From Chloroflexota bacterium (GTDB taxonomy: Bacteria; Chloroflexota; UBA11872; VXOZ01), in assembly GCA_965221905.1 (NCBI GenBank), contig OZ244922.1, positions 256,001 through 320,000 of the forward strand: a DNA stretch of 64,000 bases, written 5' to 3'. The position numbers and the translations under genes were made by a program. Of the stretch, positions 18,850 through 53,311 are shown in pieces; the stretch's first letter is position 1; each line of letters begins with the position of its first letter. Under the pieces are notes generated by a model. The model searched no databases and was not told where the DNA came from. It saw nothing but the letters and a program-made list of their open reading frames with translations.

Positions 18850-18922
18850 AGCCCACAACCGGAATTGAACCGGTGACCTCGATCTTACCAAGATCGCGCT
18901 CTACCGACTGAGCTATGTGGGC
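18850..18922 (-). tRNA. tRNA-Thr (GGT); CCA not encoded
   Basis: GCCCACA/TGTGGGC acceptor stem, TAGCTCAGTCGGTAGAGC D-arm, CGATC-TTGGTAA-GATCG anticodon arm, GGTTCAATTCC T-arm. Confidence 0.96.
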
Positions 18923-41519: not shown

Positions 41520-41741
41520 GTGCTTCGACCCTTCGACAAGCCTGTGCTGAGCTTGTCGAAGTGCTCAGGGCAGGCGGGCTCGGAACCGGCTTGCCCTTTG
41601 ACAGATGTTGCAGTCTGTTCCCCCAACAGAGAGATGCAGGGTTTCTGCAAAAGTCATTCCGGCGAAAGCTCGCCCCCAGCACGGGGGCGCGGAATCCATC
41701 TTCTTCGCGTGCCCTGGACTCCGGCTTCCGCCGGAGTGACG
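41520..41741. repeat. Nested family E repeat plus inverted family A pair
   Basis: Doubly nested element at 41520-41589; gtcattccggcgaaa...ggaatcca and ctggactccggcttccgccggagtgacg. Confidence 0.8.
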
Positions 41742-41908
41742 GATCGAAAGGCCGGTAAATCGCTCGTACATAGCCAATGCCATCTGGCGCCATTACACAC
41801 TCAGAAGAATCCAAGCTAGCCTCCACTGCTCACTAAAGTGCCGGATCGGCTAGCGGCTTCCTCAACTCACCCGGGAATGACACTCTTCCACTTCTCCGGC
41901 GTGGTCAC

Positions 41909-52304: not shown

Positions 52305-52769
52305 GCCGTATCCCTCCCTCCTCACAGCCTAGCACAGCCCAGCAAGAGTGCGCTCTATTGTGTTAATCTAATCAGGTTGAAAGTGATGCGCGGCATAGGG
52401 GATAGTGCACAAAACCACAATGGCGGCGAGAGAGACTAATGAGAGTGGCGATACGCAGGCATTGCCGTTGCTCGCGGCTGTAGGTCAAGAGTTCCGCCGA
52501 AGCTTCTCATGCCCTTGTAATTCGGAGCTGAAAGGATTGGACTTAGATTGGGCAAGAGTGAGCTAACGGTCTTGCCCATGCCTAGGCGGTCACTCAAACT
52601 GTCACACTGAGGAACCATTCGGCAGGCTCAGGATAGTCTCCGCGACGAAGAATCTAGAGTGGTAAGTTTTCTTGAATCCTCGCTTGGCTCGGAATTGTAG
52701 GTGTTGACTAATTCGTTGACAGATTTTTCAATCCAGTTAACGCCCTGGAAAGTTGAAGACGGTCAGTTC

Positions 52770-52860
52770 CGTCATTCCGGCGAAAGCCGGAATCCATCTT
52801 CAATGCACCCCTTAGACTCCGGCCCCGATTCTACCAGGGGGCAGGCTTTGCGCCGGAGTA
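52770..52860. repeat. Inverted family A pair; the second copy carries a 23-nt insert
   Basis: cgtcattccggcgaaagccggaatccat ... agactccggc[23 nt]tttgcgccggagt. Confidence 0.8.
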
Positions 52861-53311
52861 GCGGATTTCGTGACGCTTACCATGTTCGTTCTTGTTGCAT
52901 GCGCTGTCACTGCTCGTGACAGAACCACCTACTGGGTAAGGCAGCCGATTGGTAGTCATTGCTTCCTGCCGTTTCATGCTCCCATTCTGCCAACGAATTA
53001 CCTGGCAATTACAGGAATGACAAGAAGCGCAACTTTATGAACGATCAAGTCTAAATCTACTGATCCCGTTGTGATTTCGATTTGCACACCTGGTGAGCAA
53101 TTGCTTATAATGGTTCAGACCAAGGGTAACTATACCCATGGTCATCCTTTTCAGTTCTCTTGTCACGTTAGGTTCCCGTCCTAAATTCCAGATTTCCGTT
53201 TTACGAGCCGATTAATTCTACTACCTAAGGCGGGCTGTTTAGGCCGGTCTTGGAAATCAACTCTCTCTTCATCTCATCGTTCTACTATGCGCTCTACAAC
53301 GGAGACCCTTT

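What the first reader, a model, noticed from the sequence alone, without database searches (positions are those of the whole stretch)
52770..52860. A different repeat family carries a 23-nt insert with the same GCCTG 5' leader
Seen: a family-A repeat (TGGATTCCGGC|TTTCGCCGGAATGAC) is split at its loop edge by 52824-52846, whose reverse complement is GCCTGCCCCCTGGTAGAATCGGG. It has the same length and GCCTG start as the family-E inserts. A similar, more decayed insert (gctcgcccccagcacgggg) sits in the family-A copy near 41668. Inference: one mechanism places ~23-nt GCCTG-headed segments into hairpin loops of several repeat families, loosely like spacer acquisition without cas genes. This is the best candidate here for an undescribed system.
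Basis: partly seen in the sequence, partly recalled or inferred. Interest (0 to 1): 0.75.

Follow-up and report, generated by a model that had tools for sequence, protein, structure and literature searches.

The report
Tiny 24-base mobile hairpin nested in repeats
The "insert" is a worn copy of one 24-base hairpin-forming mobile element that has landed inside another small repeat; it is not a variable spacer, and the same element occurs almost unchanged in bacteria of many phyla.

Summary
At window 52824-52847 (- strand), 24 extra bases sit between the loop and the 3' arm of a palindromic repeat.

The spacer-like reading is not supported. All such inserts are copies of one sequence, AGCCTG + CCCCGTA-CTYGA-TACGGG.
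- The genome holds 65 copies at 5 or fewer mismatches. Reversed and complemented controls give 0.
- The module adds exactly 24 nt to three unrelated repeat families.
- It is precisely present or absent at 8 orthologous sites among three species of the same genus.
- Its state changes at least 4 times on a tree of one MITE family.
- It occurs with exact sequence in Dehalococcoidia, Pseudoxanthomonas, Syntrophaceae, Methylococcales, Entotheonella, Brocadiaceae and others.
- In other genomes it sits in frame inside transposase, primase-like and helicase genes.

The host repeat is a CGTC-tagged REP. Here it lies inside a 318-bp MITE with terminal inverted repeats (TIRs), which itself inserted into another REP. 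The window copy is decayed (6 mismatches) and was inherited with that MITE.

Insertion leaves no target duplication and prefers A-R^G sites. The enzyme is unknown. No RAYT is linked to the module, and module-rich genomes without a Y1 transposase exist.

Verdict: a very small REP-like or SDR-like mobile element, a new variant of a known kind.

The parts
52824..52847 (-). Decayed copy of the 24-nt module. It reads AGCCTGCCCCCTGGTAGAATCGGG. The consensus is AGCCTG CCCCGTA CTYGA TACGGG, and the inner hairpin is lost here.
   Evidence: 6 mismatches; same column as the module in 11 other MITE copies; shared with the G005 ortholog; fold: outer stem kept, inner stem lost.
52812..52864 (-). Long-form CGTC-type REP. 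The tag is degenerate (CGCT). Arms are ACTCCGGC/GCCGGAGT, the loop is GCAA, and the module lies between the loop and the 3' arm.
52769..52797 (+). Short-form CGTC-tagged REP, CCGTC-ATTCCGGC-GAAA-GCCGGAAT-CCAT. It is the inverted partner of the long-form REP, forming a head-to-head, REPIN-like dimer.
   Evidence: Features match Di Nocera 2013.
52696..53013 (+). 318-bp non-autonomous MITE with about 27-bp terminal inverted repeats. It carries the REP dimer. Left TIR 52696-52722, right TIR 52987-53013.
   Evidence: 19 copies aligned; about 24 TIR pairs, none more than 320 bp apart; G005 filled, G004 empty site.
52691..52695 (.). Left copy of the 5-bp target duplication GGAAT. The target is the arm of a CGTC-like REP, ..GCTCGGAATGAC.
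53014..53018 (.). Right copy of the 5-bp target duplication GGAAT.
41653..41697 (+). CGTC-tagged REP carrying the type-2 nested hairpin. The insert is 41670-41689, TCGCCCCCAGCACGGGGGCG.
41716..41742 (-). Short-form partner REP (GTCACTCCGGCGGAAGCCGGAGTCC) of the 41653 copy.

Best explanation
The insert is a copy of a very small non-autonomous mobile DNA element of 24 nt. It consists of a 6-nt leader, AGCCTG, followed by a 7-bp-stem, 5-nt-loop hairpin, CCCCGTA-CTYGA-TACGGG(G).

Shown:
- It behaves as a discrete unit with exact ends.
- It enters and leaves sites without target duplication or footprint.
- Its sites are mostly 5'-A-R^G-3' (usually AG^G).
- Such sites are common in G-rich palindromic repeats, so it is found nested in CGTC-tagged REPs, in two other repeat families, in a GTAG REP, in unique DNA, and in frame in genes.
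- Once nested, it also multiplies passively with its host. Here that host is a REP dimer inside a 318-bp TIR MITE that itself inserted into a REP arm.
- The window copy is an old, mutated passenger of that MITE.

Inferred:
- Movement occurs on single-stranded DNA by an enzyme acting in trans, in the manner of HUH/Y1 transposases (IS200/IS605 TnpA, RAYT).
- The leader may serve as the guide that pairs with the target. AGG is complementary to the CCT of GCCTG.
- Gene conversion between long and short copies of the same host repeat probably adds to the turnover.
For: One sequence family:
- 65 copies at 5 or fewer mismatches, against 0 for the reversed and complemented controls.

Exact +24 nt in three unrelated families:
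- ACTCCGGC..GCCGGAGT: gap 4 (48 hits) versus gap 28 (14 hits). Both strands are counted.
- GAGAGGGY..GTGAGG: gap 4 (60) versus gap 28 (5) and gap 27 (1).
- ARGCTCAG..GCGAAC: gap 1 (99) versus gap 25 (3) and gap 26 (1).

Precise presence or absence at orthologous sites:
- I examined 60 module loci of G005 and G004. Of these, 56 had collinear flanks in G000, and 7 showed an exact 24-nt absence in G000.
- One of 5 G000 sites is exactly empty in G005.

Polarity:
- At the family-E site, G005 and G004 are filled and G000 is empty, although G000 is closer to G005 (93% versus 87%). This points to loss, or to parallel gain.
- At a family-A site, G004 is filled while G000 and the more distant G003 are empty. 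This points to gain.

MITE family:
- A tree of 18 MITE copies, with module columns excluded, needs at least 4 changes of module state. Three are forced by starred branches.
- MITE size classes are 318 and 294 bp.

Distribution:
- Of 145 contexts, 49 are CGTC REP (in both orientations), 24 E-like, 6 F-like and 66 other.
- Left-flank logo over 125 unique contexts: A 78%, G 73%, then the module's A 94%.

Inside genes:
- 7 of 10 long frames carrying the module have Pfam domains: DDE_3 twice, IS66, DDE_5, DnaG Zn-ribbon plus Toprim, ResIII, and MarR.
- There is an exact 24-nt indel between two 83%-identical helicase gene homologs.

Independent of its host:
- Genus g5 has 200-468 CGTC REPs per genome, but the module matched in only 1 of 6 genomes: one hit with one mismatch.

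Guide idea:
- In REP and IS200/IS605 systems, the tetranucleotide 5' of the hairpin selects the cleavage site by complementarity (passages of PMC8266576).
Against: - No enzyme is identified. The three RAYT-like genes of this genome are each flanked by, or carry, their own GTAG REPs, not the module or CGTC REPs.
- PF01797 was not found in G039 (78 module hits), G033 (20), G023 (13) or G009 (18). In G039, however, the copies examined ride in composite repeats.
- Only 1 of 120 module-bearing 8-kb loci holds a RAYT-like ORF.
- There is no strand bias relative to replication: 38 lagging versus 27 leading.
- Leader variants (GCTTG) show no co-variation with the flank.
- In this genome the family-A flank is AA^G, not AG^G.
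- Almost no compensatory changes occur in the stem (2 cells of 455), so the copies simply decay.
- Within one host family, gene conversion could give the same precise polymorphisms.
- The element has one hairpin, not the two subterminal hairpins of IS200/IS605.
Confidence: 0.75

Rival explanations
1. There is no current transposition. A few ancient insertions created long alleles of each host repeat. All later presence or absence arises by gene conversion or template switching between dispersed long and short copies, plus hitch-hiking in MITEs.
For: - Most copies in this genome lie in three host families.
- All family-A long forms share the atypical GAAA-A or GCAA-A junction.
- The module-rich genome G039 lacks PF01797, and its copies examined sit in composite repeats that are absent from syntenic regions of G023 and G033.
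- An orthologous loop inversion shows that template switching acts on these hairpins.
Against: - This model cannot create the first insertion in each context.
- Exact-sequence copies occur in at least 66 contexts outside the three families, including unique DNA and genes of distant phyla.
- A precise 24-nt indel lies inside a helicase gene that has no repeat homology on either side.
- The same junction rule (A-R^G) holds across unrelated contexts.
Confidence: 0.15
2. It is only a long-loop structural variant of the REP, of the kind known for some GTAG REP families. It is not a separate element.
For: Di Nocera 2013 describes REP families with coexisting short loops and long self-complementary loops, and notes loops of different length in Bradyrhizobium CGTC-1.
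Against: - The same 24 nt occur in unrelated families and outside any REP.
- Genus g5 has hundreds of CGTC REPs, but the module matched in only 1 of 6 genomes, with a single one-mismatch hit.
Confidence: 0.04
3. It is a spacer-acquisition-like system that captures about 23 nt of foreign or variable DNA into hairpin loops.
For: Fixed length and a common GCCTG head.
Against: - All inserts are one sequence. There is no diversity and there are no arrays.
- No Cas1 was found in this genome.
- The other GCCTG-plus-hairpin hits in the genome are unrelated single occurrences.
Confidence: 0.01
4. The module is a functional motif, either a protein-binding site or an RNA structure, kept by selection rather than a selfish element.
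For: - The primary sequence, including the loop, is nearly identical across phyla.
- The canonical long form folds better than shuffles as single-stranded DNA (z = -3.1).
Against: - There is no Rfam match. The best is E = 0.13, at 17 bits against a gathering score of 42.
- Copies decay without compensatory change.
- Copies lie in either orientation, inside genes and inside transposase genes.
- Copy number ranges from 4 to 61 (hits with at most 1 mismatch) within one genus.
Confidence: 0.05

Closest known systems
CGTC-tagged REPs (Di Nocera, De Gregorio & Rocco 2013, PMC3733652; abstract and sections 6, 7 and passages read)
   Same: The host repeat (family A) fits the definition:
- a CGTC tag;
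- an 8-bp stem starting with A-T, A-T;
- a 4-nt loop;
- a CCA tail;
- inverted dimers;
- no linked RAYT.
   Different: - That paper lists five phyla, and Chloroflexi is not among them.
- The nested 24-nt module is not described in the text I read. Figure 2 and the additional files were not visible to me.
- 'Loops of different length' in Bradyrhizobium CGTC-1 might be the same thing.
REP/REPIN-RAYT systems (Bertels & Rainey 2011; Ton-Hoang/Corneloup 2021, PMC8266576, passages read)
   Same: - A short tag or leader plus a hairpin.
- High copy number.
- Precise gain and loss without target duplication.
- A possible guide role for the nucleotides 5' of the hairpin.
   Different: - No GTAG tag.
- No flanking RAYT.
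- Present in genomes where no Y1 transposase was found.
- A single 24-nt unit rather than a REP doublet.
- Spread across phyla, whereas REPIN-RAYT systems are described as vertically inherited (abstract of bioRxiv 2022.05.22.493013, seen in a search listing).
Small dispersed repeats (SDR) of Nostocaceae (Elhai et al. 2008, Genome Res 18:1484). The paper is not held. Its properties are recalled, plus one passage in PMC5861425.
   Same: Very small (recalled: 21-27 nt), dispersed, hairpin-forming, apparently mobile elements without a known enzyme. SDR5 is reported to use another repeat (HIP1) as its insertion site.
   Different: - A different sequence.
- SDRs are said to be confined to Nostocaceae (PMC5861425 passage), whereas this module spans many phyla.
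IS and MITE insertion into REPs (IS1397 and others; Tobes & Pareja 2006, cited in PMC3733652; recalled)
   Same: The 318-bp MITE here inserts specifically into REP arms with a 5-bp duplication. REPs therefore act as landing pads for other mobile DNA.
   Different: This explains the MITE layer, not the 24-nt module. The module has no terminal inverted repeats beyond its own stem and makes no duplication.
Rickettsia palindromic elements and REP-tagged proteins (cited in PMC3733652, passages read)
   Same: Palindromic repeats inserted in frame in protein-coding genes.
   Different: RPEs are about 100-150 bp (recalled). This unit is 24 nt, or 8 codons.

Membership tests
CGTC-tagged REP (host repeat, family A) | Terminal CGTC (or TGTC/CCTC) tag next to the stem | tested here: met
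   CCGTC-ATTCCGGC.. at 52769. About 173 short-form hairpins with the GTCATTCC head genome-wide. The long-form copy at 52812-52864 has a degenerate tag (CGCT).
CGTC-tagged REP (host repeat, family A) | 8-9 bp stem with A-T pairs at the first two positions, a 4-5 nt loop, and a 3-nt CCA tail | tested here: met
   ATTCCGGC-GAAA-GCCGGAAT-CCA.
CGTC-tagged REP (host repeat, family A) | No dedicated flanking tyrosine transposase | tested here: met
   The three Y1-like ORFs are flanked by GTAG REPs only. Genus g5 has 200-468 copies per genome and no PF01797 match.
REPtron / RAYT-mobilised REP (for the 24-nt module) | Conserved GTAG tetranucleotide 5' of the hairpin | tested here: not met
   The leader is AGCCTG.
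REPtron / RAYT-mobilised REP (for the 24-nt module) | RAYT gene flanked by the repeats or present in the genome | tested here: not met
   No RAYT is flanked by modules. Only 1 of 120 loci has a RAYT-like ORF, 4.3 kb away. PF01797 was not found in G039, G033, G023 or G009, which carry 13-78 copies.
IS200/IS605-type ssDNA element | No target duplication, precise excision, and a fixed short target 5' of the element | tested here: met
   Exact 24-nt indels restore the host sequence. The left flank is NAG in about 75% of 125 contexts.
IS200/IS605-type ssDNA element | Two different subterminal hairpins and an encoded TnpA | tested here: not met
   One hairpin and no coding capacity (24 nt).
IS200/IS605-type ssDNA element | Orientation bias with respect to replication (lagging-strand template) | tested here: inconclusive
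   38 versus 27 copies. The count is confounded by copies that ride in MITEs.
CRISPR-like spacer acquisition | Diverse captured sequences between repeats, arrays, and Cas1 | tested here: not met
   A single sequence family, no arrays, and no PF01867 match in a genome 99.6% complete.
MITE (TIR plus target duplication): the 318-bp element around the finding | Terminal inverted repeats, target-site duplication, multiple copies, and empty sites in relatives | tested here: met
   A 27-bp TIR, the GGAAT duplication, about 24 copies, and an empty site in G004.
Small dispersed repeats (Elhai 2008) | 21-27 nt dispersed, mobile, hairpin-forming repeats, nested in other repeats | not testable with these tools
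   The paper is not held. The features are recalled. Size, dispersal and nesting match, but sequence and taxa differ.

The most novel reading that the evidence does not exclude
The 24-nt module is the smallest self-defined transposable unit yet seen. It is a single-hairpin ssDNA element whose own leader (GCCTG) guides it to AG^G sites. It is moved in trans by an enzyme that is not a canonical RAYT/Y1 transposase. It passes between phyla as a passenger of IS elements and MITEs. The same machinery may also move the so-far orphan CGTC REPs.
Probability: 0.2. Interest if true: 0.8.

Novelty: new variant of a known kind. Interest (0 to 1): 0.5.

Why it matters
- How REPs without a RAYT move is an open question. 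[quoted passage not shown]
- A 24-nt element with exact ends offers a simple, countable substrate for that question. It shows a recognisable target rule and recent gains and losses between sister species. It also has carriers that can be cultivated: named Pseudoxanthomonas isolates appear.
- It explains recurrent spurious or inserted 8-residue peptide stretches in predicted proteins of many metagenome genomes, such as PVSSTGQA, SLPRT.YG and PRI.YGAG.
- It shows three layers of nesting of mobile DNA in one 330-bp stretch: module in REP, REP in MITE, MITE in REP.
- It does not reveal a new adaptive or memory-like system.

Tried and rejected
- A fuzzy regex with 4 errors timed out. I replaced it with a Hamming scan.
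- Rfam on the whole window, the locus and a canonical copy gave nothing significant.
- The module strings, searched in the full-text library, matched only one unrelated primer.
- A search of plasmid records with a 58-nt long-form REP gave no match.
- A recurring ORF next to module clusters in L038, L081 and L122 has no Pfam family and no homolog in G000, so I dropped it as a candidate enzyme.
- RAYT linkage, tested by flanks, neighbourhood and phyletic pattern, was not found.
- The replication-strand bias is not significant.
- Stem covariation showed almost none.
- Syntenic comparison of G039 with G023 and G033 was uninformative for module-only events. All five pattern-matched modules of that 20 kb lie in larger repeat blocks or unaligned intergenic stretches, and the relatives' syntenic regions hold no module.
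- Sequencing runs: contigs of four runs break at the repeats, and no 24-nt skip was listed at the five module sites. Contigs drop rare variants, so this says nothing either way.
- My first three-way alignments used the wrong strand for L194 and L240. L240 was redone. For L194 the conclusion rests on L220.
- The type-2 insert could not be reduced to one exact indel in all copies.

Full report
**1. What is at the site**

Window 52769-52864 holds two palindromic repeats in inverted orientation.
- The left one is CCGTC-ATTCCGGC-GAAA-GCCGGAAT-CCAT. It meets the published definition of a CGTC-tagged REP: a CGTC tag, an 8-bp stem beginning with two A-T pairs, a 4-nt loop and a CCA tail, mostly arranged as inverted dimers (PMC3733652, section 6).
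- The right one, read on the - strand, is ACTCCGGC-GCAA-[AGCCTGCCCCCTGGTAGAATCGGG]-GCCGGAGT.
The unit is 24 nt (52824-52847), lying between the loop and the 3' arm.

**2. The inserts are one sequence, not many**

I laid the whole genome in the Python box: 3.52 Mb, one contig, with the window at 256001-320000.
- A regex for the family-A hairpin gave 211 hits. Of these, 173 are 24-27 nt long and 38 are longer.
- Of the 38 longer hits, 20 carry GCCTGCCCCGTAnnnGATACGGGG-like inserts and 6 carry a second type. The other 12 are adjacent partial repeats or chance matches.
- A Hamming scan with GCCTGCCCCGTACTTGATACGGGG gave 9, 11, 14, 11, 8 and 12 hits at 0 to 5 mismatches, 65 in all. The reversed and complemented controls gave none at 5 or fewer and 2 each at 6.
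- The window copy has 6 mismatches and has lost the inner stem.

**3. Exact +24 nt in three unrelated families**

With exact anchors on either side, the gap lengths are bimodal with nothing in between:
- ACTCCGGC..GCCGGAGT: 4 (48 hits) versus 28 (14 hits), both strands counted.
- GAGAGGGY..GTGAGG: 4 (60) versus 28 (5) and 27 (1).
- ARGCTCAG..GCGAAC: 1 (99) versus 25 (3) and 26 (1). A further 7 at 43 or 44 carry a second-level 18-nt insert.

The only register that restores all three hosts is AGCCTG...ACGGG, placed at GAAA^GCC, CTAG^GGT and TCAG^GGC.

The module is not always in a loop. In family E it lies 4 nt 3' of the hairpin, and in family F it lies within an arm.

By regex plus eye, the 65 copies fall roughly as 32 in CGTC REPs, 15 in E, 15 in F and 3 elsewhere. 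The regex alone gives 22, 9, 13 and 21.

**4. The finding's copy is a passenger of a MITE**

A search of the genus with window 52350-53250 showed that positions about 341-675 of the query are a repeat with many copies.
- An alignment of 19 copies defines an element with about 27-bp terminal inverted repeats (TGTAAGTGTTGACTAATTCGTTGACAG).
- It is flanked by GTCATTCC|..|ATTCCCGC or CGGAAT|..|GGAATGAC. That is, it inserted into CGTC-type REP arms with a 5-bp duplication.
- In the window it spans 52696-53013.
- G005 has the filled site at 91% identity. G004 has the empty site, with one GGAAT.
- The decayed module is shared with G005, so it came with the MITE.
- About 24 TIR pairs exist and none is more than 320 bp apart. 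I found no autonomous copy. The size classes are 318 and 294 bp.
- 12 of the 19 aligned copies carry the module.
- On a tree of 18 copies built without the module columns, the module state needs at least 4 changes. Three are forced by branches with support of at least 95/80.

**5. Recent, precise gain and loss between species**

The module (1 mismatch or fewer) occurs in 16 of 16 other genomes of the genus, with 4 to 61 hits. It also occurs in 5 of 7 genomes of family f6 and 1 of 6 of f5. It was found in none of the 11 genomes of f2, f3 and f4 that were searched.

I took 30 module loci from G005 and 30 of the 38 from G004 and mapped their flanks to G000.
- 56 had collinear orthologs.
- 8 differed by -23 to -26 nt.
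- Alignments show 7 exact 24-nt absences in G000. Four are in family A (L160, L190, L200, L217) and two are in family E (L168, L179). The seventh (L188) is in family A with a flipped loop.
- The eighth (L161) is an unrelated indel.
- At least 13 loci have the module in both genomes.

In the other direction, I compared 5 G000 sites with G005 and G004:
- one is exactly empty in G005;
- two are shared by all three;
- one is ambiguous;
- one is unalignable.

Polarity:
- At the family-E site, G005 and G004 are filled and G000 is empty, yet G000 is nearer to G005 (93% versus 87%). This suggests loss, or two gains.
- At a family-A site, G004 is filled while G000 and the more distant G003 (86%) are empty. 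This suggests gain.

**6. Far beyond this genus and beyond repeats**

These come from Dehalococcoidia and other Chloroflexota, Pseudoxanthomonas, Methylococcales, Nitrosomonadales, Syntrophaceae, Desulfatiglans, Saprospiraceae, Entotheonella, Brocadiaceae and others.
- Of 145 contexts, 42 are CGTC REPs with the leader next to the tag arm and 7 are CGTC REPs in the other orientation. A further 24 are E-like, 6 are F-like and 66 are other.
- The 'other' group includes the loop or arm of E hairpins at different places, a GTAG REP, and unique DNA.
- Over 125 unique contexts, the three bases before GCCTG are A (78%), G (73%) and A (94%). Nothing is conserved after the hairpin.
- 49 of 148 copies lie in stop-free frames of at least 250 codons.
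- 7 of 10 frames tested have Pfam domains: DDE_3 twice, IS66, DDE_5, DnaG zinc ribbon plus Toprim, ResIII, and MarR.
- Two helicase-gene homologs from different MAGs differ by an exact 24-nt indel, CAC^[module]^GGCG.

**7. Which enzyme?**

This genome has three Y1-like ORFs.
- Two are flanked on both sides by their own GTAG REPs.
- The third has GTAG-type REPs inside its frame.
- None is associated with CGTC REPs or the module.

Other evidence on enzyme linkage:
- PF01797 was found in 15 of the 16 other genomes of the genus, but in only 1 of 7 genomes of f6.
- It was not found in G039, G033 or G023, which have 78, 20 and 13 module hits.
- In a 20-kb stretch of G039, the five pattern-matched modules lie in larger repeat blocks or unaligned intergenic stretches. 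The syntenic regions of G023 and G033 hold no module. High counts there can therefore come from hitch-hiking.
- CGTC REPs themselves are abundant in genus g5 (200-468 per genome). There PF01797 was not found, and the module matched in only 1 of 6 genomes, with one hit carrying one mismatch.
- No Cas1 was found in this genome.
- Strand bias is absent.
- Stem covariation is nearly absent.

**8. How it most likely works**

Shown:
- exact ends;
- no duplication and no footprint;
- an A-R^G target;
- nesting and hitch-hiking;
- turnover between sister species.

Inferred:
- Cut-and-join on single-stranded DNA by an HUH-type enzyme acting in trans, as in IS200/IS605 and REP systems. There the four bases 5' of the hairpin select the cleavage site by complementarity (PMC8266576 passages).
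- The module's leader contains CCT, the complement of the preferred AGG. A 3-nt match of this kind would arise by chance in about 6% of cases. Leader variants do not co-vary with flanks. This is a lead, not a result.
- Gene conversion between long and short host copies is a sufficient alternative for events inside one host family. It does not explain insertions in unique DNA.

**9. Comparison with what is known, and novelty**

- The host is a CGTC REP, not previously listed for Chloroflexi in the text I read.
- The MITE layer matches the known use of REPs as insertion targets.
- The module behaves like a REP. It also resembles the 21-27-nt small dispersed repeats of Nostocaceae (Elhai 2008; paper not held, properties recalled; one passage in PMC5861425).
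- It fails the defining tests of a RAYT-REP system: it has no GTAG and no linked RAYT. It also fails those of IS200/IS605: it has one hairpin and no gene.
- I found no printed instance of its sequence. Two literature searches on nested REPs gave no description of it. Figures and supplements were not visible.
- I rate it a new variant of a known kind.

**10. The second insert (41670-41689)**

It belongs to a 6-copy family, CGCCCCC-N(3-5)-GGGGGCG. All copies are at the same place in CGTC REPs. It folds well. Its boundaries are not equally clean in all copies, and I did not follow it outside this genome.

Noticed in passing
window 52696-53013 (and G000 143119-143410, 3183010-3183327, and others): A 318/294-bp TIR MITE that inserts specifically into arms of CGTC-type REPs with a 5-bp GGAAT duplication. 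There are about 24 copies, and no autonomous partner with these TIRs in the genome. A G000-specific insertion lies next to G000 3454408.
   Followed up: partly
G000 3327812-3328309(-), 1292889-1293680(-), 1522304-1522864(+) (loci L001-L003): Three RAYT-like (Y1_Tnp) ORFs. Two are classic REPtrons flanked by their own GTAG REP families. The 263-aa ORF has GTAGGGGCAACCC-type REPs inside its reading frame. By eye, the best-scoring ORF lacks the Tyr in the WQxxxY motif that the other two have.
   Followed up: partly
G000 102256, 414662, 813645, 1110398, 2483496, 2671174, 3000712: An 18-nt second-level insert (AGCGTATCGACACGATAC, itself a small hairpin) sits inside the 24-nt module in seven F-family copies. 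This is a further level of nesting.
   Followed up: no
window 41670-41689; G000 553110, 595401, 3492308, 3495297, 3495563: A second nested hairpin family (CGCCCCC-N3-5-GGGGGCG), found only in CGTC REPs and at the same loop edge.
   Followed up: partly
G000 about 400090-400370 (L239); G004 L238; G003 L240; G005 L241: Another composite repeat of about 275 bp (GGCRACACCCCTTCCCCC...) ending in a CGTC REP. It is absent as a whole at the orthologous site of G005.
   Followed up: partly
L092, L125, L153, L046, L074/L088, L089, L137/L036 (other MAGs): The module lies in frame (8 codons) inside DnaG-like primase, IS630-type (DDE_3), IS66 and DDE_5 transposase genes and a ResIII helicase gene. Homologous primase-like genes carry it at different positions and in different orientations.
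   Followed up: partly
G000 3454408 versus the G004 ortholog; also G000 322394, 3067732, 3288789, 3213639: Copies whose 5-nt loop is inverted relative to the leader (TCAAG instead of CTTGA). In one case this occurs at an orthologous site, which suggests hairpin-loop inversion by template switching.
   Followed up: no
genus g5 genomes G020, G026, G032, G034, G038, G040: Hundreds of CGTC REPs per genome (200-468 hits), but no PF01797 match. The module matched in only 1 of these 6 genomes, with one hit carrying one mismatch.
   Followed up: no
G000 411160-411464: Four tandem 70-bp units, each combining a GCCTG-headed hairpin with a GTAG REP.
   Followed up: no
window 18850-18922 (-): A tRNA gene. 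It is the only Rfam match in the window above the gathering score.
   Followed up: no
L038, L081, L122: A recurring ORF (N-terminus ..PPTLADIVREKTDDGRRIIDFFLDV..) whose 3' part runs through clusters of long-form REPs. It has no Pfam family and no homolog in G000.
   Followed up: partly
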